DNA of 27,913 nucleotides from a virus. This document shows positions 2,113 through 27,697 of this stretch, one piece after another. The first letter of the stretch is position 1; every line of letters starts with the position of its first letter. The position numbers and the translations under genes were made by a program. The notes beneath the pieces are model-generated. The model saw nothing but the letters and a program-made list of their open reading frames with translations. It ran no database searches and was not told the DNA's origin. The stretch lies in the UHGV virus genome UHGV-0785300; one strand, given 5' to 3'.

Positions 2113-2388
2113 ATGATTCCTTGTATTTTCATTGTCCTGGGTGTGATATACTTCATCTGTATCGCATTAAGGGCGAAATCCAAGGTCTTGATGTGGATGT
2201 GGAACAACAATATTATTGAGCCTACGTTCACACCGAGCCTGCTGGTGAATGCATCTGATCCAGCATCACGTTGCCATCTGTTCCTGACCGACGGCAAAAT
2301 ACAATTCCTCGGCGACTGTTTCCATGATCTGAAGAACCAGACAGTGGATATGGTCGACATCTCTGAACCTGAAATTTGGATTGAATAG
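2113..2388 (+). CDS. hypothetical protein with hydrophobic N-terminus (91 aa)
   Basis: ATG ORF in operon context; N-terminal hydrophobic stretch IPCIFIVLGVIYFICIAL. Confidence 0.4.
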   Translation: MIPCIFIVLGVIYFICIALRAKSKVLMWMWNNNIIEPTFTPSLLVNASDPASRCHLFLTDGKIQFLGDCFHDLKNQTVDMVDISEPEIWIE

Positions 2389-2391
2389 ATT

Positions 2392-2802
2392 ATGAAATTA
2401 CTGGGATATTTTCGTGAACTCCCAACGGGCACTGAAGGCAAGTTGTTCTCACAGGTGAAAGGGGATGACATCGGCGATACGATGATTCCATTGTACACTC
2501 GTGAACTTCCTGTCGAAGGTGCCTGGGAGCGCCGTGTGGTCGCTGCCGCCAACAAATATGGTGATGTAATCGTCGTTGCTGACCGTCACCACAGCCGATT
2601 CATGAACAGCCAGCTCAAGATCCTGAAAGAAGCAGGCGTCATTAAATCCACCCATACCCGCGAACAGGGCTTCATCGACAACCAGGGCAACTTCCTCACT
2701 CGTGAAGAGGCGTGCATCGTAGCCCGTGAAGCTGGACAGATTAATCAGGTGCGCCTGAAGACAACCCCTTTCCGCGAACTCTTTTCCGAAGACCTCTATT
2801 GA
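2392..2802 (+). CDS. hypothetical protein (136 aa)
   Basis: ORF 4 nt after the previous stop; no confident motif. Confidence 0.4.
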   Translation: MKLLGYFRELPTGTEGKLFSQVKGDDIGDTMIPLYTRELPVEGAWERRVVAAANKYGDVIVVADRHHSRFMNSQLKILKEAGVIKSTHTREQGFIDNQGNFLTREEACIVAREAGQINQVRLKTTPFRELFSEDLY

Positions 2803-2809
2803 AGAAAAA

Positions 2810-2827
2810 GGCGGTATTATTACCGCC
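2810..2827. terminator. stem-loop GGCGGTA-TTAT-TACCGCC flanked by an A-run (5') and a weak T-rich tract (3')
   Basis: 7-bp perfect inverted repeat 8 nt after the stop at 2802; U-tract weak on the + strand, better on the - strand. Confidence 0.3.
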
Positions 2828-2852
2828 TCGACCTCTTGTTTGGTAACATCAA

Positions 2853-3095
2853 ATGAACCCAGAATTTGAAAATCTGTTCGAGCGATGCTTCGAACCAGGT
2901 TCTGTGTCCGGTTACATGGACCGCCTTTGTACTGCCATTGTAATACGCCTTGCTGCCAAGGGTATCGTTGTCAACACCATTATCCGCAATGGGAACAACT
3001 TTATCATGCAGATGACTGATTATCACCACCGCACAGGCATCATCCAGGTGTCATGTGTTGACAACAGCATTATTGAATGGAGACAGTACGCATGA
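2853..3095 (+). CDS. hypothetical protein (80 aa)
   Basis: ORF whose stop overlaps the next start (ATGA at 3092-3095). Confidence 0.35.
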   Translation: MNPEFENLFERCFEPGSVSGYMDRLCTAIVIRLAAKGIVVNTIIRNGNNFIMQMTDYHHRTGIIQVSCVDNSIIEWRQYA

Positions 3096-3709
3096 CAACC
3101 TATGTAATCAATGGCGGCGATTTACTGAAAGCCGCCTGTAGCTTCAATCTGATCGACATCTTTGCCCACGGTGCCAACTGTTGGTCTACCATGGGCGCTG
3201 GTATTGCCCTGCACATCGGTAACAACTTCCCAGCCCTGCGTGAAGTCGATGCTAACGACCCTCGTGGTCCAGAGCAACGCCTGGGTGGCATGTCCTATGC
3301 ATTTGACCACAGCACTGGTGTCTGGGGTGCGAACCTCTACACTCAGTTTTATCCAGGTCCGAATGCTCGCATGCCGTCTGTCATCAGTTCTGTTCAGACC
3401 CTGTTTGAGCAGGTGCATGAAATTGTGGAAGCAACTAAAGACGAAACTGTCTATGTCGGCCTGCCTGCTATCGGCTGTGGCATCGGCGGTCTGAATCTGT
3501 ATGACGTTGTCCGCCAGGTGGAAGCGCTGGCTGAAACCCTGTATGAAGACACTCGCTGCCGGGTTGTCCCCGTGTTCTACATCATGGAAGTAGACAAGTT
3601 TGCGGAAGACATGGAAAATCTGAACGCGCTGGACGATGATATCAACGTCGTCGATTCTGAAGAAGAAATTATCCGGGTGGAGGGGGTGAATAATGATATG
3701 CGCGTTTGA
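3092..3709 (+). CDS. macro-domain (ADP-ribose binding/hydrolase-like) protein
   Basis: YVINGGDLLKA...DIFAHGANCWSTMGAGIAL resembles the macro-domain NAAN..GGGV..AI phosphate-binding loop, and VYVGLPAIGCGIGGL resembles the second loop (FPAIStGvyG); start set at the ATG coupled to the upstream stop with a GGAGACAG SD. Confidence 0.6.
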   Translation: MTTYVINGGDLLKAACSFNLIDIFAHGANCWSTMGAGIALHIGNNFPALREVDANDPRGPEQRLGGMSYAFDHSTGVWGANLYTQFYPGPNARMPSVISSVQTLFEQVHEIVEATKDETVYVGLPAIGCGIGGLNLYDVVRQVEALAETLYEDTRCRVVPVFYIMEVDKFAEDMENLNALDDDINVVDSEEEIIRVEGVNNDMRV

Positions 3710-6542: not shown

Positions 6543-6857
6543 ATGACCCCATTAAAAGAAATGTATGAGCGCCTGGCTGAACTGCAGGCGAAGGAAAAGC
6601 GCTTCTCAGAAGAAGAGACAGAGCTGTCCGAGCTGAACACTTTGATCGCCACTCGCGAGAAGTACCTGCAGCGCTACATTAATCACCCGCCGCGCATGGT
6701 AGACCGCGTCAGCACTATCATGGACCTGGATGAAGTTACTCCTGGCAAAGAAATCATTGTCAGGGAAGTCCACCAGATGGTCGCCATGGGTCAGATCTTT
6801 GGTCGTGCAGACCAAGACGACATGATCTTCCTCCTTGAAAAGAAACTGGTGATGTGA
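6543..6857 (+). CDS. hypothetical protein (104 aa)
   Basis: AAGAGGAA SD; stop overlaps the next ATG (TGATG). Confidence 0.45.
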   Translation: MTPLKEMYERLAELQAKEKRFSEEETELSELNTLIATREKYLQRYINHPPRMVDRVSTIMDLDEVTPGKEIIVREVHQMVAMGQIFGRADQDDMIFLLEKKLVM

Positions 6858-7363
6858 TGGCTATCAAACCCCGTATGTTATTTGCGCATATGCGCTCGGC
6901 TCATGCATACGCTCTGTCCAGCTATGCCCAGCGCCTGAAGGTTGGCTGTGTTATCGTTGACCCACGTGTTGACCAACCCCTGTCTATCGGTTGGAACGGG
7001 ACTGCTCCTGGCGCTCCTAATGTCTGTGAGAAGGAAGTAGACGGTCAACTGGTATCGGTGGGTGTTATCCACGCCGAGGAGAATGCTCTGAGCAAACTCC
7101 CCCAGCACACCGAAGACTGTTGTGGTCTGGTGATGTTTGTCACTCATAGTCCATGCCCAGAGTGCACCCGTCGTATTATCGACAGTGGCAAGATCGCTAA
7201 AGTGTTCTATGACCGACCATATCGTATCATAGACGGCATTATTGAAATGCTGGCTGCTGGGATTGAAGTATATCGCATGGTCGATCAGATTGTTGTAGTC
7301 CAGCATTCTGTGAAGAACGGCGAACTGGTATCCACCCCTGTTTTAGTGAACCCTGACAAATAA
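6857..7363 (+). CDS. cd: dCMP deaminase (cytidine/deoxycytidylate deaminase zinc-binding family)
   Basis: Zinc-binding motifs VIHAEENAL (H-A-E) and SPCPECTRRI (PCxxC); start set at ATG 6857 (the track start at 6854 is GTG). Confidence 0.75.
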   Translation: MAIKPRMLFAHMRSAHAYALSSYAQRLKVGCVIVDPRVDQPLSIGWNGTAPGAPNVCEKEVDGQLVSVGVIHAEENALSKLPQHTEDCCGLVMFVTHSPCPECTRRIIDSGKIAKVFYDRPYRIIDGIIEMLAAGIEVYRMVDQIVVVQHSVKNGELVSTPVLVNPDK

Positions 7364-7373
7364 GGAATTTATC

Positions 7374-7781
7374 ATGCGTTATGTAGATCGTATGCTCGGC
7401 AAAGACGAGCACGTTATTGCCTTCACCCGCCCGACTTGGTGGAGCGGTTTTTGGATTTACGTTCTGGTTATTTTAACGTTTATCCCAACATTTGGATTCA
7501 GCTTGTTATTTCTGATACCAACAATTTTAAATGTATTGACAACTGAATTCGCTGTGACTAACAAGCGCGTCATCGTCAAACGTGGTTTCATCCGTCGTGA
7601 TGCTGATGAGTTGCGCATTGGTAAGGTGGAGACAGTGAAGGTTGATCAGTCCATCACAGGCCGCATCTTGGGCTTCTCAACAATCAGCGTGATCGGTACG
7701 GGCGGCACCCACCTGCTGGCCAAGGGTTGTGCTGGTGGTAATGCGTTCCGCCAGAAGATCTACGATCACCTAGAAGACTGA
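7374..7781 (+). CDS. membrane protein with bacterial PH (YdbT/DUF304-like) domain
   Basis: Hairpin of two TM helices (WWSGFWIYVLVILTFIPTFGFSLLFLIPTIL) then a beta-rich segment resembling the bPH domain; AAGGAA SD. Confidence 0.45.
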   Translation: MRYVDRMLGKDEHVIAFTRPTWWSGFWIYVLVILTFIPTFGFSLLFLIPTILNVLTTEFAVTNKRVIVKRGFIRRDADELRIGKVETVKVDQSITGRILGFSTISVIGTGGTHLLAKGCAGGNAFRQKIYDHLED

Positions 7782-16441: not shown

Positions 16442-16975
16442 TCATGAACCCTCCGCCCAGACAAAGCCGTATTTGTTCAGTAGATCCACGGTTTCACCAC
16501 GAGCGCGAGCCACGATAGATTCTACTGATTCTTCCACCTCGAGTGGTGGGCAACCAGCCTTTTCGTACGTGTTAAGCAAGAGAGCAAGTTCTTTTACGAA
16601 CTCTTCTTGTTCCTCTCCTCCAAAGAACCACATCCGCAGATCGTCGCGTTCCCCGTGCTTGTTCAGAGAAGCCATATTCACGTACACGTAATCGTTTTTC
16701 TGAACAACGTCATTTATCTCCGGCCAATGCAACCCAGTCATCGCATAATTGAAGAATTCCGAAGGGGTGACTTCATCCGACAAATAATACAAACGGAAGT
16801 CACCGCTGGGGCCATGTTTGCAAGTTCTATCCAGCATTATTTTGTGGATGTCAACACGGTCTCGCTTCAAGACTTCCCGTTTCTTCAGTCGACCTCTCAG
16901 CCAGGCACTGCCAATACACAAAAGAACGAAAGCAGTAGCACCAGTGAGTATGTTGAAAGAATCAATAATGTTCAT
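16442..16975 (-). CDS. membrane-anchored hypothetical protein
   Basis: Start set at the internal ATG (MNIIDSF..., GGGGA SD) because the first ATG lies inside a hairpin; N-terminal TM helix ILTGATAFVLLCIGSAW. Confidence 0.4.
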   Translation of the reverse strand: MNIIDSFNILTGATAFVLLCIGSAWLRGRLKKREVLKRDRVDIHKIMLDRTCKHGPSGDFRLYYLSDEVTPSEFFNYAMTGLHWPEINDVVQKNDYVYVNMASLNKHGERDDLRMWFFGGEEQEEFVKELALLLNTYEKAGCPPLEVEESVESIVARARGETVDLLNKYGFVWAEGS

Positions 16976-16992
16976 AAGATCCCCGAAGTGAT

Positions 16993-17012
16993 AGAGGGGC
17001 ATAAGCCCCTCT
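16993..17012 (-). promoter_or_regulatory. intercistronic GC-rich stem-loop (AGAGGGGC-N4-GCCCCUCU)
   Basis: Perfect 8-bp inverted repeat between the PspA-like stop and the next gene; no U-tract. Confidence 0.35.
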
Positions 17013-17016
17013 GATG

Positions 17017-17625
17017 TTATTTGCTCAGGCTGGCGAGGTAGTTGTCGGCTTCGATAGACGACGGGCTGTTGGCGGAGTAGCTCGAATCAGCGATTTCGGT
17101 TTCGCGCAGGATGGCATCGATATCGATGGTGGTCATACCAGCGGCATAATCGATATCTTCAGGGAGCACCAGACCCAGGTCGTTCGTCTCTTTCTGAACA
17201 CGAACCAGCTCGAGATTGGACTTGACTTCGTCCAGTTTGTCACCCAGCTGGATGATCGCACCGTTCAGTTTGTCGCTGCTTGCTTCGATGTCCTTCACCT
17301 GAGACAACAGGGCTTCACCGATACGGCGGCGATGCAGAATAATCAGGGCGTCGGCGCGGGTTGGTGTGACACCACGAGCGATGGCATCCTTCAGAACTTC
17401 TTCGCGCTTGGCGGCTTCACTCAGGTTCTGTTCTGCGGTCTTCTTCAGCTTGACGCCGTTGCGGACGTTGGTGACACGGGCTTCCTCCAGGCGACGGATT
17501 TCGTCAGACAGCTTGCGAGCAGCCAGGTTCAGGCGCTTTTCGGTGTCGGTCAGTTTATCCAGACTTGTGGTGACGTTGGCTTCAACAGTGGTGAAGATGC
17601 GTTTCAGTAAGTTTTTCAGTGACAT
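17017..17625 (-). CDS. PspA/IM30 (phage-shock protein A)-like coiled-coil protein
   Basis: N-terminal FTTVEANVTTSLDKLTDTEKRL resembles the PspA [21 protein letters not shown] motif; heptad-like charged helices throughout; about 200 aa. Confidence 0.45.
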   Translation of the reverse strand: MSLKNLLKRIFTTVEANVTTSLDKLTDTEKRLNLAARKLSDEIRRLEEARVTNVRNGVKLKKTAEQNLSEAAKREEVLKDAIARGVTPTRADALIILHRRRIGEALLSQVKDIEASSDKLNGAIIQLGDKLDEVKSNLELVRVQKETNDLGLVLPEDIDYAAGMTTIDIDAILRETEIADSSYSANSPSSIEADNYLASLSK

Positions 17626-20612: not shown

Positions 20613-22037
20613 CTAGAATTTCCAATTATTGACTGTTTGGGCTTTCTGCTCATCGCTGGCAGCAGCCCCGGACTTGTTGAGGTCATGTTTGATGTGTACG
20701 TTTTCGACATATTTGGCCTCAGCCTCAGTCAGGTCCTTCTTAACTTCGTTCCAGTCCAGGTCAAACAGGATCTGTTTGTCTTGGTCCATACCAAACAGGA
20801 ATGATTTCAGCTTCTGCTTGTTGGCATAACGGTTCTTGAGTATTGAGGCTCGGGCTTTCTTGACCGCCGCCAGTTCGTCAGGAGCATAGAATGCCATGAT
20901 GAAGTCGGCCACCTTCGGAATACCGATAGCATCTGCCAAATCACTGATTCCACCATCAGTGCTATTCTGATTCTCACGATTGAACTGCATACCAGTCCAT
21001 ACAGGGACATCAAACTCAAATCCCAGCGCACGAAACTCACGAGCCACAGACGTGTAATAGACGTTCGTGTTCTGCATCAGGTGGGCAGGCAGGCGTGAGG
21101 AAGCAGCTTCGCCAAGATAGTCAATAACGATAACATCAGGAGCACGACCAGTTGCCTGGATGTACTCAAGGATATCGCGGCGGAATAAACCTGTGTGTCC
21201 AGTACCAGAAGGATATTCCTTGATGACGATATCACCCTTGGGCGCACCATCTTGGCGACTGCGGAGCTTCTCTATCGTTGCAATATACTCGTGCCTTGTG
21301 AGTTTCTCTAAAGACTCAAAGTCGCGTCGCATGATACGGGCATCAAGACGGTGTCGCCAGACGTTCTCGGCCACTTCAAGGGTGAAGACAAAGACGTTCA
21401 GCCCCTGCTCCGAGTACCCTGCGGTCAGGTCAATCAGCGTTGTGGTCTTACCTGCGTTGATCGCACCTGTTACGATGTTCAGTGTCTTCTTACCAACGCC
21501 ACCACGTGTCGCCTTATTGAATATCTCAACTGCGAACGGGATCTTGGCCTCGTTGGAGTTCATGTGGTCATACTGCTCTGCCGCCATCTCCCAATAGATG
21601 TGACCGAGGTATGAATCAAACCGGATCGCCAGGGCTTCCTGCAACATGGTCGGGATGTTGTTCATCTCGTCCTTGCGCTTCTCGTCACCGTAGATGTTAA
21701 CGGCGGTCTTGATTGCGTTGTGTACGGCCTTTTGCCGCGCCCAAGCCTCGGTTTCCTTCGCCAGCCACTCTTCATTGAAGGTGTTGTCGTTGATGTTCTC
21801 CAGGGCAGATACCGCCTGGTCAAACACATATTCGTTCAGCTTTGTCCGTTCAAGAATGATAGATAGTGCTTCGACAGACGGGCGGGCATTGTACTCTGAG
21901 GTATAACTGTCAATCAGACCAAAGATGACCTTTTCGCCTTCGTTGTCAAAATAATCGGCTTTCAGGTACGGCAGGATCTTTCTTTGGTAATCTTCATTGT
22001 AAATCAACTGTGAAAGCACGACAGATTCGAGTAACAT
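20613..22037 (-). CDS. replicative DNA helicase (DnaB-like, T4 gp41-type)
   Basis: 474 aa; Walker A GAINAGKTT; DnaB-like domain order; sits downstream of uvsX as in T4. Confidence 0.8.
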   Translation of the reverse strand: MLLESVVLSQLIYNEDYQRKILPYLKADYFDNEGEKVIFGLIDSYTSEYNARPSVEALSIILERTKLNEYVFDQAVSALENINDNTFNEEWLAKETEAWARQKAVHNAIKTAVNIYGDEKRKDEMNNIPTMLQEALAIRFDSYLGHIYWEMAAEQYDHMNSNEAKIPFAVEIFNKATRGGVGKKTLNIVTGAINAGKTTTLIDLTAGYSEQGLNVFVFTLEVAENVWRHRLDARIMRRDFESLEKLTRHEYIATIEKLRSRQDGAPKGDIVIKEYPSGTGHTGLFRRDILEYIQATGRAPDVIVIDYLGEAASSRLPAHLMQNTNVYYTSVAREFRALGFEFDVPVWTGMQFNRENQNSTDGGISDLADAIGIPKVADFIMAFYAPDELAAVKKARASILKNRYANKQKLKSFLFGMDQDKQILFDLDWNEVKKDLTEAEAKYVENVHIKHDLNKSGAAASDEQKAQTVNNWKF

Positions 22038-22043
22038 TGGCCA

Positions 22044-22373
22044 CTACCCCACCAAAAATTTATTATATTCCTGAGCATTACGCTGCATGAGGTCTACAAG
22101 GATATCCCCTGACACCTCAGTGAACAAGTCATTTTCTTTCAAATTCACAAACATCAGACGCAATGGTTTCTTCAATATATCAGTCACGAAAGACAGGCGG
22201 GGTTCGCCGTCCACTTCGTTGATGGCCACCTTGCCGAACCGGAATTGAACACCACGGAATTTGCCAGAAGTGATCTTGATGATCGCCAGCTGATCAGCAC
22301 CAGGGTCGATGATTGTGTAGTTATTGGGGGAGTCTCCTCCCCCTCCACTGTTATTCGCTTGTGTTGATAACAT
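22044..22373 (-). CDS. hypothetical protein at the T4 gene-40 position
   Basis: Start placed at the internal ATG (MLSTQANNSGGGGDSP...), which still overlaps the uvsX 3' end by about 23 nt; assignment by position only. Confidence 0.3.
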   Translation of the reverse strand: MLSTQANNSGGGGDSPNNYTIIDPGADQLAIIKITSGKFRGVQFRFGKVAINEVDGEPRLSFVTDILKKPLRLMFVNLKENDLFTEVSGDILVDLMQRNAQEYNKFLVG

Positions 22374-23436
22374 GGTCCATTTGCTCCAGCATGTTAGCAG
22401 GCATAACAGTACCGTTAGAAACACCGAACATTTTCTTCACGTCATCGGCGAAGTTGACATTCTCCAGCAGCGGATACCAGAAATCATCACCCATCTGACG
22501 CTTCTGATATTTCTTTTCCTTCTCAGGATCGAAGCCGCCCTTGGCTGTACGCACATACCAGCCGGAAGACGGCATATCAACATAACCCAGAGCACGAGCG
22601 ATCTCAAGCAGGCCGCTCCAGCGATCAATACCACCGTTGTACAGTACCGTCACAGGGAGCTTGGCTTTCTCTTTGACATGGCGACCTTTCATGATGCTTA
22701 TGTTGAAGTTCCAGCCCAGCAGATCTTTGTCTTCCTTCACCTGAGAACGGGTGATAAACCAGATCAAGTTGGAGGATAAGAAGCCCTGCTTGCCGCCTTT
22801 GATGTTGGGCTCGGCATACTGGTTGCCGATCTCATCGTAATAGGAGTTGATCCAAACACACACGAGATTTTTGCTGTTGATTTCGGGAGTCATGACACGC
22901 CAGAAGCTGTTAAGGGCACGGGCGCGGGTCATGTCTTGAGTGTCGTTCCCTTTGATCGCATCTTCAACTTCCTTGGTGGAGGGAAGTTGGCTGATAGAGT
23001 CGATGAAGATTATAACATGGTCGCCTTTCTTGACTTCCTGTAGGATCTGCAGCAAGCGGATCTTGGTCTGTTCAACGTTGTCGATCGGTACGTACAGGAC
23101 GCGGTCCATGTCAATGCCCATAGAGGTCCAGTAATCGGCGTTGGCACCCTTTTCTGAGTCCGCAAAGACGCAGATAGCATCAGGGAACTTGTCCATGTAC
23201 GCCTTGACGTCCACCAGGCCGAACATCGTTTTGAAGGTACGGGAATCACCCACCATCATCTTGATACCGGAGATCAGGCCGCCGTCAATACGCCCAGACC
23301 ATGCGATGTCGATCAGGGGAATACCAGTAGAACAGATGATAGACGGTTCCAGAGCGTCTGATTGGGACAGCACTGAAGCCTGGTCATCGTGTTTCTTAGC
23401 AACCTTCAGCATGCGGTCCATTAATGAACTGGCCAT
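22351..23436 (-). CDS. uvsX: UvsX recombinase (RecA/Rad51 family)
   Basis: GIKMMVGDSRTFKTMFGLVDVKAYMDKFPDAICVFADSEKG closely matches the T4 UvsX Walker-A region (LLILAGPSKSFKSNFGL...YPDAVCLFYDSEFG); AAAGAGGAAG SD. Confidence 0.85.
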   Translation of the reverse strand: MASSLMDRMLKVAKKHDDQASVLSQSDALEPSIICSTGIPLIDIAWSGRIDGGLISGIKMMVGDSRTFKTMFGLVDVKAYMDKFPDAICVFADSEKGANADYWTSMGIDMDRVLYVPIDNVEQTKIRLLQILQEVKKGDHVIIFIDSISQLPSTKEVEDAIKGNDTQDMTRARALNSFWRVMTPEINSKNLVCVWINSYYDEIGNQYAEPNIKGGKQGFLSSNLIWFITRSQVKEDKDLLGWNFNISIMKGRHVKEKAKLPVTVLYNGGIDRWSGLLEIARALGYVDMPSSGWYVRTAKGGFDPEKEKKYQKRQMGDDFWYPLLENVNFADDVKKMFGVSNGTVMPANMLEQMDHVINTSE

Positions 23437-23963
23437 TTCACTTCCTCTTTGTTGTTAATCGTCGTTAGTAAGTCTACACCCATAACCTTCTGGGACAAAA
23501 TGTTAACCGCCTCTTGGATGCTCTTCAGGGACATTGTCTCAACAAGTGACGATGCGTCATTATGCCGGTCGGTTAGGTACATATTGCGCAGATTGTTGTA
23601 GTTCGTGCGGTTGATGCACGCAGTGTTCAGTGCTATATTCAGGATATACATCATCTGTTCAATGGTTATATCCTTTGGCATAGCGTGGATGTAATAGATC
23701 GAGCCTTCAAAATAGACGTCTACCAGTTCATCTGGTATCTTGGTGCCACCACCGGCATACTCTTCGATCATCCTGAACAGAGACTCTGGTTGCTCGCTGG
23801 CGATCTTATGCGTAACAGTCGCCGAAAGACCGTCGCCCGGTTTAACAGGCCTGGTGTATTCGGTAAAGAATACATTATGTCCGCCGCCGATGATGTGCTC
23901 GGCGAATTTGGAGGATGCCTGAGCAGCGTTCTCCGCATGGTATGAAACGACGACTGTAAACAT
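23421..23963 (-). CDS. hypothetical protein (180 aa) within the nucleotide-metabolism operon
   Basis: ATG coupled to the upstream stop; overlaps the uvsX start by 16 nt; no confident motif. Confidence 0.45.
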   Translation of the reverse strand: MFTVVVSYHAENAAQASSKFAEHIIGGGHNVFFTEYTRPVKPGDGLSATVTHKIASEQPESLFRMIEEYAGGGTKIPDELVDVYFEGSIYYIHAMPKDITIEQMMYILNIALNTACINRTNYNNLRNMYLTDRHNDASSLVETMSLKSIQEAVNILSQKVMGVDLLTTINNKEEVKWPVH

Positions 23964-24517
23964 TAGAACTCCAGGGTCAGAGGGGTTTCTGCGGACTTGT
24001 CGTAATCCGCGCCACCAGAAGCACGTAGACGATTGCGATCGTTCTTGCGTTTGTGCGCCAGTATGTAAGTCTCAATGTCGATCTCCATATAAGAACACGC
24101 AGACGACAGGAAGAACATGAGAGTCTCAACGCAAGGATCGTTCATGAATTGCCCAAGGCGGTACGTAACATTGCGATGCCCTGCAACACCCAAAGCACAC
24201 GGGGTGAATTCGCGATTACTAAGGACTTCAAATTCTTCTTCGATCTCACCTTTGGTGCGGTCCACAAGGATGAAGCACAACATGAAGTGTACCACGTCCA
24301 CCAGTTCATAAACTGCGTTCGTATGGTCAAACCCGATGTCGTTGCCATAGACCTTCCAGTCACGGGTGGTTTCATCAAGGAACTCTGCCCACTCACGATA
24401 GATAGAGTTGATGACTGCATTCTGACTCCATACATTCTTCCACTCTTCCCCAAAGTAGGCCACGTTGGTGGCCTTTTGGAGTTCGAGCAGGCTTTGGATA
24501 TGCCCTGCTGTGATCAT
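23963..24517 (-). CDS. putative all-alpha dNTP pyrophosphatase (T4 gp56 dCTPase/dUTPase-like)
   Basis: Acidic helical motifs (EEWKNVW..., EWAEFLDET..., ELVDVVHFMLCFIL) resemble the gp56/dimeric-dUTPase pattern as remembered; ATGA coupling to the dNMP kinase gene. Confidence 0.5.
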   Translation of the reverse strand: MITAGHIQSLLELQKATNVAYFGEEWKNVWSQNAVINSIYREWAEFLDETTRDWKVYGNDIGFDHTNAVYELVDVVHFMLCFILVDRTKGEIEEEFEVLSNREFTPCALGVAGHRNVTYRLGQFMNDPCVETLMFFLSSACSYMEIDIETYILAHKRKNDRNRLRASGGADYDKSAETPLTLEF

Positions 24518-25083
24518 TTACGTTCTCCGTAGAATTTAACGAACGGTGCCCAACCATCAAATGGATTGAGGAATTCGTAGTCCACTTTCATTTGGTCAAT
24601 GAAAGCCTCTATATCGTCCTCTATGATACCAGCACGGTCGGCCTTTGAAATACGGGTGATAGGACATTTCGTACTCAGCGCCCATTCATATTCCTGAGGG
24701 GTACGCAGATCGCTCACGATATAATGGACGTGGGGGTTCTGCTCTACCAAAGGAAGCTGGAAGCGCTTGAAGAATGCCAGGAACAGATCAGGCTGTACGT
24801 AACGCAAGCCCGTATCGCTGCCTAGATGAAGCCAGATCTGCCGTGGAGTTAAGCCCTTGGGGTTATCAGGGTGCACGTAAGGAACGTCCTTCACGGCATC
24901 CTCTACCTCCGCTGGCAGCCATGGATAGATGAAGTTGGCAACCCGGCGCAGTTCATCTGAGAACGAAAGGCGCTGGATGTCCATATCACCCTGTAGTTGG
25001 TGATAGCTGATGAGGGACTCCAAACAGAAGTCCTTGCCGGAACGCTTGCGCCCCGTAAAGAATTCAAGATTTGGGTACATCAT
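24514..25083 (-). CDS. deoxynucleoside monophosphate kinase (T4 gp1-like)
   Basis: P-loop FFTGRKRSGKDF matches T4 gp1 FLSGVKRSGKDT; YIVSDLRTPQEYE resembles gp1 YIVPDTRQDHEMD. Confidence 0.7.
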   Translation of the reverse strand: MMYPNLEFFTGRKRSGKDFCLESLISYHQLQGDMDIQRLSFSDELRRVANFIYPWLPAEVEDAVKDVPYVHPDNPKGLTPRQIWLHLGSDTGLRYVQPDLFLAFFKRFQLPLVEQNPHVHYIVSDLRTPQEYEWALSTKCPITRISKADRAGIIEDDIEAFIDQMKVDYEFLNPFDGWAPFVKFYGERK

Positions 25084-26126
25084 ACTACACCTTCCAGGAA
25101 CTTAGGATCAACGATCTTGCGGTCAACCGGAGAATGGGTGAGCGCGGTGTTCAATCCATGATCCTGAATCAGGTCCAGGTTAATGAGCTTGTTATTCAAT
25201 TTGCAGTGCAGGCAGTATGCCATCTGCACAATCAGACCGCGATCCGCATCATACTCCTTCAGGAAGGCAACAACAGTTTCCCAAGGACTACCGAAGTCAC
25301 AATGAACAAGCACGCCAGTGAACAGATCGCGGATATGGTTCTGGTTGGTCACGTTCGTGAAGTGGATCATGGAGTTGATGAACCCAGCTTCTACTTTGGT
25401 GTCCTTCGTGATCTTGCCCAGCTGCTTCTGGCTGACTTCATTGTTGTAGTAATGAAGATTGTTAGAGAATAGCTTGTACTGACCGACATCAACATCCAAC
25501 ACCCGAGCAATCACTTCCTGAAGAATAGAGAACTCAATGAAGTTGATTGAACTCATACCCCACAGAACATCCTGTGAGCGATTGATAACCGTCAGGTTCA
25601 GACGACCTTCAACGATGGCGAACAACAGAGCCAGGTTACACACCATGTCCTTAGTCTTCGCTTCGCCGCTCTCGCTGAACTTCGCCAGACCAGCATCCGA
25701 ATCCAGAGCCGGATCATAGATGGTGAGGTACGCCTGGCGAGTGTTTGGATTCTTGCGCAGGCGGTTGATGACGCTATCCAGCTGGCCATGGGCGTACAGA
25801 CGCGGACCATAAGCGGCTCGCCATGTGTGGCCGTTGTCGGAAAAGTTGGCGGCGCGGGGCAACACGCGGGACAGGAAGCGAACGTCATCGCGCCCGGACA
25901 GAACCCAGAAGGTCTCGCCGATGGCAGCGATAGCCGATGAGTTACGACCTTCAACGGATAGCCAGCGGTCACGGATGTCGGCGACGGTTATGGTCACGCC
26001 ATCAAGGAAGCGGGTGCTATCAGTATTGATTTCAGCATTACCAGGATCAGATTCGATCCCGAATTCACGGATAGCCAAGACAGCCTGTTTCAGCATGTCA
26101 TTGTTGTTTATTGCTTTGATTTCCAT
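25080..26126 (-). CDS. thymidylate-synthase-fold pyrimidine hydroxymethylase (dUMP/dCMP hydroxymethylase-like) with C-terminal extension
   Basis: NPNTRQAYLTIY matches the T4 gp42 and TS motif NPDSRRGIMIY; catalytic-Cys context DMVCNLALLF; NRSQDVLWG matches RSNDVVFG/RSCDVFLG; SNNLHYY matches the TS C-terminal motif; 348 aa versus about 250 for gp42. Confidence 0.7.
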   Translation of the reverse strand: MEIKAINNNDMLKQAVLAIREFGIESDPGNAEINTDSTRFLDGVTITVADIRDRWLSVEGRNSSAIAAIGETFWVLSGRDDVRFLSRVLPRAANFSDNGHTWRAAYGPRLYAHGQLDSVINRLRKNPNTRQAYLTIYDPALDSDAGLAKFSESGEAKTKDMVCNLALLFAIVEGRLNLTVINRSQDVLWGMSSINFIEFSILQEVIARVLDVDVGQYKLFSNNLHYYNNEVSQKQLGKITKDTKVEAGFINSMIHFTNVTNQNHIRDLFTGVLVHCDFGSPWETVVAFLKEYDADRGLIVQMAYCLHCKLNNKLINLDLIQDHGLNTALTHSPVDRKIVDPKFLEGVV

Positions 26127-26785
26127 CAGATACTCCCAAAATCACGACAGAGGAATGCCATCACAGCCTGGTCTACTGTTAGGCCGTGAGACTTCATCAT
26201 ACCCGCAGCCACCGTAGGGAACAAGTCTTTATGTCGTTGACAATGGTCATGAACTCTCTCCCACTTCTCAACCACCAGACTTTCATTGAAGTCCACACCG
26301 CCGTTACGTGATTTAACACGGGCGATACACGTTTCAAGAGGAGTGTCCATAAAGAGCACAACCAATTCACGTGGTGGGCGTGTCAGACGGGGGATCCAAG
26401 AACTCAATAATGTGGATGGAATGATACCTTCGAAAATCACATCATATTTCAAGTATTCTGGTTGGTCAGCAATAGACAACGCGAACAACATCTGCTCAGT
26501 GTCCTTCAGGGAATCAACCCCCTTGGACTTCGACTTGTCATATTTACCGATACAGACCACGTTGAACGAAGGACAGACAGTCAGCATGACCTTGCCGTTA
26601 TGGGTCACGACATACGCCTGAGGATCCCTCTCCGCCAGCTGAGACGGCACAGTGGATTTACCGCTACCATTGGAGCCTTTGACGTAGTAGATTTGCCCTC
26701 GTGCTGGGTAGATCCCCTTTACGACGGGTGGTTTAAAGAATGTGTGGACGGGGCGCTTCATCAGCCCCTTCAGGGAGTAGGACAT
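26126..26785 (-). CDS. P-loop nucleotide/polynucleotide kinase-like protein (candidate hydroxymethyl-pyrimidine kinase)
   Basis: Walker A VKGSNGSGKST near the N-terminus; 219 aa; ATGA coupled to the hydroxymethylase gene; GGAGCAG SD. Confidence 0.5.
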   Translation of the reverse strand: MSYSLKGLMKRPVHTFFKPPVVKGIYPARGQIYYVKGSNGSGKSTVPSQLAERDPQAYVVTHNGKVMLTVCPSFNVVCIGKYDKSKSKGVDSLKDTEQMLFALSIADQPEYLKYDVIFEGIIPSTLLSSWIPRLTRPPRELVVLFMDTPLETCIARVKSRNGGVDFNESLVVEKWERVHDHCQRHKDLFPTVAAGMMKSHGLTVDQAVMAFLCRDFGSI

Positions 26786-26815
26786 AAACTGCTCCGATAA
26801 ACAAAAGGAGCTGCT

Positions 26816-26842
26816 ATTATAGCAACCCCTTCATCTATTGAA
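26816..26842 (-). promoter_or_regulatory. candidate promoter: TTCAATAG box, 13 nt, TATAAT
   Basis: Minus strand reads TTCAATAGatgaaggggttgcTATAAT about 30 nt upstream of the kinase ATG at 26785. Confidence 0.35.
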
Positions 26843-26860
26843 CAGTTTCTGAACTTAAAT

Positions 26861-27697
26861 TTACACAGCTTTCGCTTCAGCCAGAGCCTGTGGAAGCCAT
26901 TCATTGATCGCCTTAACCAGAGACTCAGCATCAGACTCTTTGATCTTCTGACGTTTGGTGAAGGACTTGCCGTTCACGTACAGACTGAAGCCCCAGCCAC
27001 CGGAAACGATAGGCGCAACGTCGACATACGTATTGGTGCGGGCGTGAAGGTTTTCAGGGTTAGCCAGTTCGGTGACCGGGAACTGGAACCAACGCATGTC
27101 TGGGTTCACGTAGCTCAGGAACACACCGGGGACAACACCAGCTTCAATCGCCGCCAAGACCGGACCGTGATTAGAAGCGCGAGCCACGTCAACCATTTCC
27201 TCACGTTTGGTGTGACGGCGTTTACGCTCTACCAGCGCCGCCTGTGGGGTCAGGGTCTTACCCTTCGATGCTTCTTTCAACATAGAAGACGCCAAGGAGC
27301 CGATTTTCGCGTCGGACGGCTGATTGCCTTCTTCCAGCGCCGCGTTGACTGCATCTTCAACCGCGTCTACCGGGGCGTCGGACACTGGGGCTTCACATGC
27401 ATCGGCAGAGATCGGTGCTTCAGCATCAACGGTTTCAGCGACTTTCAGGGATACTTCAGCTTGGGCTTGCTCTTGGGCTTGCGCCAGAGCCTGCTGAGTT
27501 TCTTCCTTCTCTTCGGCGCTCAGACCTTCAATCAGTTCGAAGCCGTTGGCAGCCTGAAGAACACCTTCAACCATACGGCGCAGGGTAACGTTTCCGATGA
27601 TCAGACCTGCTTCTTTGATTTCAGCCTGGATAGCCGCAACGTCTTTGCCTTCAATTTCAATTTTGGTTCCAGAATCCACATGAAGAATATATGACAT
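26861..27697 (-). CDS. hypothetical two-domain protein with acidic Ala/Glu/Gln-rich linker (278 aa)
   Basis: Clear ATG ORF; low-complexity central region (EEKEETQQALAQAQEQAQAE...DAEAPISADACEAPVSDAPVDAVEDAV) between two globular-looking segments. Confidence 0.45.
   Translation of the reverse strand: MSYILHVDSGTKIEIEGKDVAAIQAEIKEAGLIIGNVTLRRMVEGVLQAANGFELIEGLSAEEKEETQQALAQAQEQAQAEVSLKVAETVDAEAPISADACEAPVSDAPVDAVEDAVNAALEEGNQPSDAKIGSLASSMLKEASKGKTLTPQAALVERKRRHTKREEMVDVARASNHGPVLAAIEAGVVPGVFLSYVNPDMRWFQFPVTELANPENLHARTNTYVDVAPIVSGGWGFSLYVNGKSFTKRQKIKESDAESLVKAINEWLPQALAEAKAV

What the first reader, a model, noticed from the sequence alone, without database searches (positions are those of the whole stretch)
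23963..26785. Coupled operon that looks like a DNA base-hypermodification pathway
Four minus-strand genes joined by ATGA overlaps encode a P-loop kinase, a thymidylate-synthase-fold hydroxymethylase, a gp1-like dNMP kinase and a gp56-like dNTP pyrophosphatase. With the dCMP deaminase at 6857..7363 this is the enzyme set expected for making a 5-hydroxymethyl-pyrimidine nucleotide, excluding the canonical dNTP, and possibly phosphorylating the base after replication (as in published thymidine-hypermodification pathways). The flanking unknown genes (23421..23963 and 26861..27697) are candidates for further pathway steps.
Basis: partly seen in the sequence, partly recalled or inferred. Interest (0 to 1): 0.85.

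Follow-up and report, generated by a model that had tools for sequence, protein, structure and literature searches.

The report
Known phage thymidine-hypermodification operon (ViI-type)

Summary
The four minus-strand genes are at the stated coordinates. They encode a 5-hmdU DNA kinase (26126-26785), a thymidylate-synthase-fold enzyme best read as dUMP hydroxymethylase (25080-26126), a T4-gp1-family dNMP kinase (24514-25083) and a gp56-family all-alpha dNTP pyrophosphatase (23963-24517). Only two junctions are ATGA; the kinase|TS junction is TGATG. The coupling continues through TAATG into a fifth gene and then uvsX.

The window is an Agtrevirus-like coliphage, 97-99% identical in DNA to AV101 and ZQ1. 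The block matches Salmonella phage ViI orf00063-orf00067 gene for gene. The kinase is 88% identical to ViI gp67, whose 5-hmdU DNA kinase activity has been shown in vitro. ViI-like phages make 5-(2-aminoethoxy)methyl-dU (5-NeOmdU). Two Agtrevirus phages were already listed as carriers in the 2018 paper.

The later steps (serine:DNA transferase, PLP decarboxylase, second kinase) are not in the window, but the closest relative has them at 81-92% identity. The two flanking unknown genes show no enzyme fold.

Verdict: real, correctly interpreted, already known, low interest. A conserved hairpin/promoter cassette upstream of the kinase and the coupled ACT-like gene are the only loose ends.

The parts
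26126..26785 (-). [quoted passage not shown] First gene of the block. It phosphorylates the 5-hydroxymethyl group of hmU already in DNA.
   Evidence: PF18748 at E = 7.4e-108, 358.9 bits. Walker A GSNGSGKS at residue 37. 88% identity over the full length to ViI YP_004327432, whose activity was shown in vitro (PMC8989533).
25080..26126 (-). Thymidylate-synthase-fold enzyme, read as dUMP 5-hydroxymethyltransferase (dUMP to 5-hmdUMP).
   Evidence: PF00303 at 1.5e-15 covering only profile positions 54-219. phrog_3676 at 6e-181. Far below the NCBIfam TS equivalog cut-offs. Best PDB match is MilA hydroxymethylase. 34% identity and 1e-31 to SPO1 gp29. Cys163, Glu71, Arg183-Ser184, Asp186, Asn195, His225 and Tyr227 align with E. 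coli C146, E58, R166-S167, D169, N177, H207 and Y209; T4 gp42 has Asp179 where this protein has Asn195. 75% identity to the ViI TS homologue, annotated 'thyA'.
24514..25083 (-). T4-gp1-family dNMP kinase, inferred to convert 5-hmdUMP to 5-hmdUDP.
   Evidence: phrog_139 at 7.5e-47, the same family as T4 gp1 at 1.8e-65. P-loop GRKRSGKD at residue 11, matching the T4 gp1 P-loop GVKRSGKD. 91% identity to ViI dnk.
23963..24517 (-). All-alpha (dimeric-dUTPase / gp56 family) dNTP pyrophosphatase, inferred to clear dUTP and possibly dTTP.
   Evidence: PF08761 at 4e-09, 37.4 bits against a 22.9-bit cut-off. phrog_173 at 3.8e-40, the same family as T4 gp56. ExxE-25 residues-ExxD metal motif at E42..D74, also present in ViI, a Vibrio phage and T4 gp56. 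60% identity to the ViI protein.
23421..23963 (-). Translationally coupled ACT-like protein of unknown role (PF24021). Detected by sequence only in enterobacterial Ackermannviridae. Not shown to belong to the pathway.
26795..26846 (-). Conserved intergenic hairpin with a T-rich tail just upstream of the kinase start. Its loop and stem contain TGCTATAAT, and its lower stem covers the kinase Shine-Dalgarno sequence. Likely a terminator/promoter cassette marking the 5' end of the transcription unit.
   Evidence: Terminator-like hit at 26832-26804. Folding energy -31.9 kcal/mol, z = -6.9. Nearly invariant between the window and ViI. 4 of 23 pairs show compensatory changes across four genera.
6857..7363 (+). 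dCMP deaminase (T4 Cd-like), supplying dUMP. Unlinked to the block, about 17 kb away on the other strand.
   Evidence: PF00383 at 4.2e-16 and phrog_174 at 9e-53. HAE at residue 72 and PCPEC at residue 99. AV101 annotates the homolog as the Cd allosteric enzyme.
26861..27697 (-). Upstream neighbour of 278 aa, function unknown, separated from the kinase by the hairpin. Listed only because the finding names it; there is no evidence that it is a pathway enzyme.
22351..23436 (-). UvsX recombinase, overlapping the ACT-like gene by 16 nt. The coupled run continues into replication and recombination genes.
   Evidence: PF00154 and PF21134. ORF coordinates. No terminator-like site predicted between 22000 and 23963 on the minus strand.

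Best explanation
The block is the Agtrevirus ortholog of Salmonella phage ViI genes orf00063-orf00067. It is the nucleotide-pool 'front end', plus the first DNA-level step, of the ViI-type thymidine hypermodification pathway.

Proposed sequence of events:
1. The dCMP deaminase (6857-7363) raises dUMP.
2. The TS-fold enzyme adds a one-carbon unit from methylene-tetrahydrofolate to C5 of dUMP through its Cys163 thiolate, but releases 5-hydroxymethyl-dUMP instead of dTMP.
3. The gp1-family kinase makes the diphosphate, and host NDP kinase makes 5-hmdUTP.
4. The gp56-family pyrophosphatase removes competing dUTP, and perhaps dTTP.
5. The phage polymerase incorporates 5-hmdU.
6. The 5-hmdU DNA kinase then phosphorylates the hydroxymethyl group in the polymer to give 5-PmdU.
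7. Enzymes encoded outside this window finish the base. The gp247-type serine:DNA transferase makes O-serinyl-thymidine, and the gp226-type PLP decarboxylase makes 5-(2-aminoethoxy)methyl-dU (5-NeOmdU).

The finished base makes the DNA refractory to many restriction enzymes.

Shown elsewhere by experiment: the kinase, transferase and decarboxylase steps for the ViI proteins, and the base itself in ViI, CBA6, CBA120, Vibrio phage 1.255.O and phiHS2.

Inferred here: that this phage does the same, the hydroxymethylase activity, and the substrates of the dNMP kinase and the pyrophosphatase.
For: Source and synteny:
- The window is 98.7% identical in DNA to Escherichia phage AV101 over the block. 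It is 97.7% identical to ZQ1 and AV101 over 25 kb.
- It is gene-for-gene syntenic with ViI, with the same junction types.
- Protein identities to ViI are 88, 75, 91, 60 and 55%.

Individual genes:
- Kinase: PF18748 at 7e-108.
- ViI gp67 is YP_004327432, which is the syntenic ViI gene.
- TS-fold protein: retains the catalytic Cys and the uracil-type Asn. It fails the canonical TS thresholds. It is nearest to SPO1 gp29 dUMP hydroxymethylase and to the TS homologs of M6-like phages, annotated 'deoxyuridylate hydroxymethyltransferase'.
- SPO1 gp29 finds only this gene in the whole AV101 genome, and E. coli ThyA finds nothing at E < 1.
- The window kinase and pyrophosphatase fall in the same PHROG families (139 and 173) as T4 gp1 and gp56.
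- The pyrophosphatase metal motif is present.

Rest of the pathway:
- AV101 holds orthologs of ViI gp160, gp226, gp243 and gp247 at 81, 92, 85 and 90% identity.

Literature:
- PMC5889632 lists SKML-39 and AG3 among ViI-like 5-HMUDK phages. Both are about 91% identical in DNA to the window.
- The same paper notes that the kinase co-occurs with the dUMP hydroxymethyltransferase.
- PMC8989533 gives the enzymology.
- PMC11721090 states that the modification genes are conserved across the family.
Against: - No chemistry has been measured for this phage, or for any Agtrevirus in the papers I could read. The AV101 paper still speaks of plain hydroxymethyluracil.
- I found no report in the papers read that the hydroxymethylase activity of the ViI-type TS homolog has been assayed. 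It rests on homology and on the known product.
- Similarity of the dNMP kinase and the pyrophosphatase to T4 gp1 and gp56 is only at family level. Pairwise BLASTP is marginal, and the window dNMP kinase does not reach Pfam DNMK.
- Relatives keep 60-84% ordinary thymidine, so dTTP exclusion is either incomplete or undone later.
- The later pathway genes are not in the window and had to be checked in a relative.
Confidence: 0.9

Rival explanations
1. This is an ordinary dTTP-supply operon. The TS-fold protein is a true thymidylate synthase and the P-loop protein a thymidylate or nucleotide kinase, as many GenBank records annotate them, and the DNA is unmodified.
For: Database names under the match include 'thymidylate synthase', 'putative thymidylate kinase' and 'terminase small subunit'. 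There is a weak secondary PHROG hit to thymidylate kinase at 1.4e-06.
Against: - The kinase matches PF18748 at 7e-108 and is 88% identical to an enzyme shown to phosphorylate 5-hmdU in DNA.
- The TS homolog scores 56.6 bits against the 327-bit cut-off of the TS equivalog.
- It groups with hydroxymethylases.
- Relatives carry 5-NeOmdU.
Confidence: 0.02
2. The pathway stops at 5-hydroxymethyl-dU. The phage DNA carries plain hmU, as older Ackermannviridae papers state, and the kinase has another role.
For: The AV101 paper and earlier genome papers describe 'HMdU' substitution. The finishing enzymes are not in this window.
Against: - Virion DNA of ViI and other thymidine-hypermodifying phages is described as containing no detectable 5-hmdU; the fifth nucleoside is 5-NeOmdU.
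- The nearest relative has the transferase and the decarboxylase at 90% and 92% identity.
Confidence: 0.04
3. The front end is the same, but this lineage finishes the base differently and makes a thymidine hypermodification other than 5-NeOmdU.
For: Other 5-HMUDK phages make different bases from the same 5-PmdU intermediate: M6, PaMx11, PhiW-14 and SP10. No Agtrevirus has been analysed chemically in the papers read.
Against: The enzymes that set the product are 90% (gp247) and 92% (gp226) identical to ViI in AV101. Ackermannviridae as distant as Vibrio phage 1.255.O and the Taipeivirus phiHS2 still make 5-NeOmdU.
Confidence: 0.04

Closest known systems
Salmonella phage ViI (Kuttervirus) orf00063-orf00067 and the 5-NeOmdU pathway (Lee et al. 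2018 PNAS, PMC5889632; Lee et al. 2021/22 NAR, PMC8989533)
   Same: Same gene order and strand: kinase, TS homolog, dnk, dUTPase_2, ACT-like, uvsX. Same junction types. Protein identities of 55-91%, with the kinase at 88%. The intergenic hairpin upstream of the kinase is nearly identical.
   Different: Different subfamily (Aglimvirinae against Cvivirinae). The pyrophosphatase and the ACT-like protein are only 60% and 55% identical. The 278-aa neighbour has a shorter acidic linker. No chemical data exist for this lineage.
hmU-phage pre-replicative pathway (Bacillus phages SPO1, SP8, phi-e): dUMP hydroxymethylase gp29, dTTPase/dUTPase, dCMP deaminase, dNMP kinase
   Same: Same logic for the nucleotide pool. 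The TS homolog is 34% identical to SPO1 gp29 (E = 1e-31). Both differ from ThyA in having Cys-Asn and Arg-Gln where ThyA has Cys-His and Arg-Arg, and both carry a long C-terminal extension.
   Different: SPO1 stops at 5-hmdU and has no 5-HMUDK. The window pyrophosphatase has no detectable similarity to SPO1 gp22.1.
T4 hydroxymethyl-cytosine system (gp42 dCMP hydroxymethylase, gp1 dNMP kinase, gp56 dCTPase/dUTPase, Cd, glucosyltransferases)
   Same: Same enzyme families for the kinase and the pyrophosphatase (PHROG 139 and 173). Same overall strategy of pool substitution followed by modification on the DNA. A similar map position: T4 has 42, beta-gt, uvsX, 40, 41; here it is kinase, TS..., uvsX, x, a gp41-like gene.
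   Different: The base is uracil, not cytosine: Asn195 here against Asp179 in gp42. There is no significant pairwise similarity to gp42. The DNA-level step is phosphorylation followed by amino-acid transfer, not glucosylation.
Other 5-HMUDK systems (Pseudomonas phage M6 5-NedU, PaMx11, PhiW-14 putrescinyl-T, SP10 glutamyl-T)
   Same: The PF18748 kinase sits beside a TS-family hydroxymethyltransferase. Kinase homologs occur in 405 phage records, including M6-like phages.
   Different: Only about 30% identity over the kinase core. The downstream enzymes and final bases differ. The ACT-like gene was not found outside Ackermannviridae with enterobacterial hosts.

Membership tests
[quoted passage not shown] | Match to the family profile above the curated cut-off over its full length | tested here: met
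   358.9 bits against a 27-bit cut-off, profile positions 1-195 of 196.
[quoted passage not shown] | P-loop NTPase Walker A motif | tested here: met
   GSNGSGKS at residues 37-44.
[quoted passage not shown] | Orthology (sequence and position) to a member with demonstrated activity | tested here: met
   88% identity with no gaps to ViI gp67 (YP_004327432), in the same position upstream of the TS homolog. Activity is reported in PMC8989533.
[quoted passage not shown] | ATP-dependent phosphorylation of 5-hmdU within DNA | not testable with these tools
   Needs recombinant protein and a 5-hmdU DNA substrate.
dUMP 5-hydroxymethyltransferase (thymidylate synthase superfamily) | TS fold with the catalytic cysteine and the dUMP phosphate-binding residues | tested here: met
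   PF00303 at 1.5e-15. Cys163, Arg130, Arg183-Ser184, Asp186, His225 and Tyr227 align with E. coli C146, R126, R166-S167, D169, H207 and Y209.
dUMP 5-hydroxymethyltransferase (thymidylate synthase superfamily) | Uracil-type residue (Asn) rather than cytosine-type (Asp) at the base-discriminating position | tested here: met
   Asn195 aligns with E. coli N177; T4 gp42 has D179 there. That this position sets base specificity comes from established knowledge of TS and dCMP hydroxymethylase, not from a test here.
dUMP 5-hydroxymethyltransferase (thymidylate synthase superfamily) | Closer to characterised hydroxymethylases than to canonical thymidylate synthases | tested here: met
   SPO1 gp29 at 1e-31 and 34% identity. 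MilA at 8e-18, against the best canonical TS at 1.4e-08. E. coli ThyA at 2e-13 and 21% identity. All NCBIfam TS equivalogs are far below their cut-offs.
dUMP 5-hydroxymethyltransferase (thymidylate synthase superfamily) | Product is 5-hmdUMP (water addition, no hydride transfer) | not testable with these tools
   No residue signature I could apply is decisive. Needs an enzyme assay.
T4 gp1-type dNMP kinase | Same profile family as T4 gp1, with the gp1-type P-loop | tested here: met
   phrog_139 at 7.5e-47 for the window protein and 1.8e-65 for T4 gp1. GRKRSGKD here against GVKRSGKD in gp1.
T4 gp1-type dNMP kinase | Match to Pfam DNMK (PF21448) or to the solved T4 structure by sequence | tested here: not met
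   No PF21448 hit for the window protein and no PDB hit at E <= 1. The Vibrio ortholog reaches only 20.4 bits against a 27.1-bit cut-off. Membership is therefore family-level only.
T4 gp1-type dNMP kinase | Phosphorylates the modified dNMP (5-hmdUMP) | not testable with these tools
   Inferred from the SPO1 and SP10 precedent described in PMC8989533.
All-alpha NTP pyrophosphatase (dimeric dUTPase / T4 gp56 family) | Profile match above the cut-off, and the same family as gp56 | tested here: met
   PF08761 at 37.4 bits against a 22.9-bit cut-off. phrog_173 for both proteins. Weak PDB match to Campylobacter dUTPase 1w2y at 9e-04.
All-alpha NTP pyrophosphatase (dimeric dUTPase / T4 gp56 family) | ExxE-(12-28 residues)-ExxD metal-binding motif | tested here: met
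   E42-W-A-E45 ... E71-L-V-D74. Also present in the ViI and Vibrio orthologs and in T4 gp56. The motif definition comes from my own knowledge of the superfamily.
All-alpha NTP pyrophosphatase (dimeric dUTPase / T4 gp56 family) | Substrate range (dUTP only, or also dTTP) | not testable with these tools
   Decides whether the canonical dTTP is really excluded.
Complete ViI-type 5-NeOmdU pathway | aGPT-Pplase2 serine:DNA transferase and PLP decarboxylase encoded by the same element | tested here: inconclusive
   Neither gene is in the 27.9-kb window. Both are in the closest complete relative, AV101, at 90% and 92% identity to ViI, together with gp160 (81%) and gp243 (85%).
Complete ViI-type 5-NeOmdU pathway | 5-NeOmdU present in virion DNA | not testable with these tools
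   Measured for ViI, CBA6, CBA120, 1.255.O and phiHS2, but not for this lineage.

The most novel reading that the evidence does not exclude
The ACT-like protein (23421-23963, PF24021) is translationally coupled to the pool enzymes. It was detected by sequence only in Ackermannviridae with enterobacterial hosts. It could be an uncharacterised part of the system. For example, it could be a ligand-sensing regulator of the nucleotide-pool enzymes. Or it could be a factor that sets which fraction of thymidines, and which ones, end up modified. Only 16-40% of thymidines are modified, and the origin of the remaining ordinary T is unexplained.
Probability: 0.08. Interest if true: 0.5.

Novelty: already known. 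Interest (0 to 1): 0.12.

Why it matters
The system itself matters. It is one of the best understood routes by which phages build a non-canonical base on DNA, and so blunt restriction enzymes and possibly other nuclease defences. This copy adds no new knowledge. The pathway was predicted in 2013, demonstrated for ViI in 2018-2021, and phages of the same genus were already listed as carriers.

Two practical points follow. First, DNA of this phage should be expected to resist many restriction enzymes. Second, public annotations of the kinase ('terminase small subunit', 'thymidylate kinase', 'baseplate hub') and of the TS homolog ('thymidylate synthase') are misleading and should be corrected.

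Tried and rejected
- **Direct pairwise tests against T4 gp1, gp56 and gp42.** These gave only marginal or no alignments, so the 'gp1-like' and 'gp56-like' labels rest on shared PHROG families.
- **PDB sequence searches.** Searches with the dNMP kinase, the 5-HMUDK and the ACT-like protein found nothing informative.
- **SPO1 gp22.1 (putative dUTPase/dTTPase).** It is unrelated to the window pyrophosphatase.
- **Other copies of the hairpin core.** None in the window.
- **Rfam and tRNA scans of the whole window.** Both empty.
- **A second, canonical TS in the nearest relative genome.** None found.
- **The EcoSal review on hypermodified DNA (PMC11163837).** Not held in the library.

Full report
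**Observation.** The ORF list shows the four minus-strand ORFs exactly as reported:
- 26126-26785 (219 aa)
- 25080-26126 (348 aa)
- 24514-25083 (189 aa)
- 23963-24517 (184 aa)

Reading the junctions shows ATGA overlaps at 25080-25083 and 24514-24517. The kinase|TS junction is TGATG, a 1-nt overlap. A further TAATG junction at 23963 couples a fifth gene (23421-23963), which itself overlaps uvsX (22351-23436) by 16 nt.

Overlaps of this kind are the rule in this genome. In the annotated homologous stretch of phage AV101, 22 of 45 same-strand junctions overlap, 8 of them by 4 nt and 7 by 1 nt. The run of six that contains this block is the longest but not statistically remarkable. The dCMP deaminase at 6857-7363 is confirmed by PF00383, phrog_174 and the HAE and PCPEC zinc motifs.

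**Source.** The block is 98.7% identical in DNA to Escherichia phage AV101. The last 25 kb of the window (2914-27913) are 97.7% identical to vB_EcoM-ZQ1 (99% coverage) and to AV101 (94% coverage). These are Agtrevirus-type members of Ackermannviridae, subfamily Aglimvirinae. About 270 phage records match the block, from Salmonella, Klebsiella, Escherichia, Dickeya, Shigella and other hosts.

**The kinase.** The first gene matches Pfam HMUDK_HMUD1 (5-hmdU DNA kinase) at E = 7e-108 over the whole profile. It has a Walker A motif at residue 37.

**The TS-fold protein.**
- It matches the thymidylate synthase domain only over the core, 57.5 bits.
- It is far below every NCBIfam thymidylate synthase equivalog cut-off, at best 56.6 bits against 327.
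- Its best solved relative is MilA, a CMP 5-hydroxymethylase (8e-18), ahead of any canonical TS (1.4e-08).
- It is 34% identical (1e-31) to SPO1 gp29, the classical dUMP hydroxymethylase. Against E. coli ThyA it is 21% identical (2e-13). It has no significant similarity to T4 gp42.
- An alignment with ThyA and gp42 places Cys163 on the catalytic Cys146. It places Arg183-Ser184, Asp186, His225 and Tyr227 on their ThyA counterparts.
- The same alignment places Asn195 on Asn177. T4 dCMP hydroxymethylase has Asp179 at this position, so the substrate base should be uracil. The alignment returns the T4 residues as I recall their published numbering (C148, D179, E60, Y96), which supports it.
- Like SPO1 gp29, the protein has Cys-Asn and Arg-Gln where ThyA has Cys-His and Arg-Arg. 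It also carries a C-terminal extension of about 110 residues.

**The dNMP kinase and the pyrophosphatase.** The third protein belongs to phrog_139 and the fourth to phrog_173. These are the families that T4 gp1 and T4 gp56 hit best. The fourth protein also passes Pfam dUTPase_2. It carries the ExxE...ExxD motif shared with gp56. Pairwise similarity to the T4 proteins is marginal. The window dNMP kinase does not reach Pfam DNMK. These two assignments are therefore family-level, and their substrates are inferred.

**Orthology to a characterised system.** Salmonella phage ViI carries the same genes in the same order with the same junction pattern: orf00067, thyA-like orf00066, dnk orf00065, dUTPase orf00063, orf00062, uvsX. 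Identities to the window proteins are 88, 75, 91, 60 and 55%.

ViI orf00067 is gp67 (YP_004327432), one of the proteins shown in vitro to phosphorylate 5-hmdU in DNA (PMC8989533). ViI, CBA6, CBA120 and Vibrio phage 1.255.O contain 5-(2-aminoethoxy)methyl-dU in place of about 40% of thymidines (PMC5889632). A Taipeivirus contains it at about 16% (bioRxiv 10.64898/2026.05.19.726188).

The 2018 paper's Table 1 already lists SKML-39 and PhiSboM-AG3. Both are about 90-91% identical in DNA to this window. Its Figure 2 legend notes that the kinase co-associates with the dUMP hydroxymethyltransferase. A 2024 review states that the modification genes are conserved across the family.

A distant Vibrio member of the family keeps the order: 286-aa protein, kinase, TS homolog, dNMP kinase, dUTPase_2, 204-aa protein, uvsX.

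**The rest of the pathway.** The remaining ViI proteins used in the in vitro reconstitution are gp160 (aGPT-Pplase1), gp226 (PLP decarboxylase), gp243 (second kinase) and gp247 (serine:DNA transferase). None has a match inside the window. All have orthologs in AV101 at 81, 92, 85 and 90% identity, tens of kb away.

SPO1 gp29 detects only this one TS-fold gene in AV101, and E. coli ThyA detects nothing at E < 1. The block is therefore the only evident source of a C5 one-carbon pyrimidine in such a genome.

**The flanking genes.**

*ACT-like protein (23421-23963).*
- It matches PF24021, 'phage ACT-like domain'.
- It was found only in Ackermannviridae with enterobacterial hosts: 13 protein clusters and 270 phage records. 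In every row inspected it lies next to the dUTPase-like gene, with uvsX on the other side where the listing shows it.
- Its model has a confident N-terminal beta-alpha-beta-beta-alpha-beta domain and a poorly predicted helical tail that ends in an invariant motif.
- The protein at the same position in the Vibrio phage is not detectably similar (E = 0.13). The 2018 paper reports 5-NeOmdU in a ViI-like Vibrio phage (1.255.O). I did not check whether that phage has an ACT-like gene.

*278-aa protein (26861-27697).*
- It has no family assignment.
- It has two very conserved domains joined by a hypervariable acidic linker.
- It is separated from the kinase by a terminator-like hairpin.

Neither protein looks like an enzyme.

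**Boundaries and regulation.** The 75-nt spacer upstream of the kinase folds into a long hairpin (-31.9 kcal/mol, z = -6.9) with a T-rich tail. Its apical part contains TGCTATAAT, which resembles an extended -10 element. Its basal stem pairs with the kinase Shine-Dalgarno sequence.

The spacer is almost invariant between this phage and ViI, although the flanking 278-aa gene product is only 56% identical. In Klebsiella and Serratia relatives the stem is kept, with compensatory changes in 4 of 23 pairs. The Vibrio phage has a classical terminator at the same place.

I read this as a terminator/promoter cassette that begins the transcription unit at the kinase. This is an inference, and no transcript data were available. 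No terminator-like site follows before uvsX. The unit therefore probably runs on into recombination and replication genes, much as T4 runs 42, beta-gt, uvsX, 40, 41.

**Mechanism: shown and inferred.**
- Shown by experiment in relatives: phosphorylation of 5-hmdU in DNA by gp67-type kinases, serine transfer by gp247, decarboxylation by gp226, and the structure of the final base.
- Shown here by computation: orthology and synteny, intact catalytic motifs, a uracil-type specificity residue, non-canonical TS status, and presence of the finishing genes in the nearest relative.
- Inferred: hydroxymethylase activity, the substrates of the dNMP kinase and the pyrophosphatase, exclusion of dTTP, and the identity of the final base in this phage.

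**Rivals.** An ordinary dTTP-supply operon, a pathway that stops at hmU, and a different final base are each given 0.02-0.04. The reasons are set out under the rival explanations.

**Verdict.** It was reached from sequence alone, which is creditable. But this is a textbook copy of a published system, in a genus already named in the original paper. Novelty: already known. Interest: about 0.12. The only residual questions are the role of the coupled ACT-like gene and the conserved hairpin cassette.

Noticed in passing
window 26795-26846 (minus strand), in the spacer between the 278-aa gene and the kinase gene: A strongly conserved hairpin with a T-rich tail. TGCTATAAT sits at its apex, and the kinase Shine-Dalgarno sequence is paired in its base. 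It is nearly invariant against ViI, and 4 of 23 pairs show compensatory changes across four genera. It is a possible terminator/promoter cassette, with ribosome-binding-site masking on read-through transcripts.
   Followed up: partly
window 17017-17625 (minus strand); also 16442-17002: A phage-encoded PspA/IM30-family protein (PF04012 at 3.7e-10), 83% identical to ViI Vi01_046c. AV101 annotates no gene between its ligase and the 113-aa ORF, so this ORF and its neighbour appear to be missing from AV101 (an indel between close relatives).
   Followed up: partly
window 25080-26126 compared with Kuttervirus records (FEC14, selz, RA148): The TS-homolog gene looks mosaic across genera. Kuttervirus FEC14 carries a copy 94% identical to this Agtrevirus-type protein, although its kinase is only 88.6% identical. 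ViI's copy is 75% identical. This suggests exchange of this gene between genera.
   Followed up: no
window 26126-26785 and its homologs in public records: The 5-hmdU DNA kinase is widely mis-annotated as 'terminase small subunit' (this is the description of phrog_800), 'thymidylate kinase', 'guanylate kinase' or 'baseplate hub'.
   Followed up: yes
window 26861-27697 (minus strand): A 278-aa protein with very conserved N- and C-terminal domains and a hypervariable acidic linker. The C-terminal domain is modelled as a type III secretion chaperone / YbjN / PsiB-like fold. A positional homolog exists even in a Vibrio phage (29% identity). Function unknown.
   Followed up: partly
window 7374-7781 (plus strand): A small protein with a bacterial PH domain (bPH_2, 1.9e-12) immediately downstream of the dCMP deaminase. 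AV101 annotates it as a putative membrane protein.
   Followed up: no
L005 (AV101) about 2306-3487: The AV101 ortholog of the ViI PLP decarboxylase gp226 aligns from about 2306. The annotated CDS starts at 2591, and an opposite-strand ORF is annotated at 2267-2560. This is probably a start-site or annotation error in that record.
   Followed up: no
window 20613-26785 compared with T4 20.6-26.2 kb (L008): The map order here is TS-fold gene, ..., uvsX, small ORF, gp41-like helicase. This parallels T4 42, beta-gt, (segA), uvsX, 40, 41. The base-modification module seems to occupy an ancestral position in T4-like replication gene clusters.
   Followed up: no
window 27044-27694 (plus strand): A long 216-aa antisense ORF lies inside the 278-aa gene, with similar antisense ORFs of 110-160 aa across the operon. 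I took them for by-products of coding-strand composition; none was searched against any family library.
   Followed up: no
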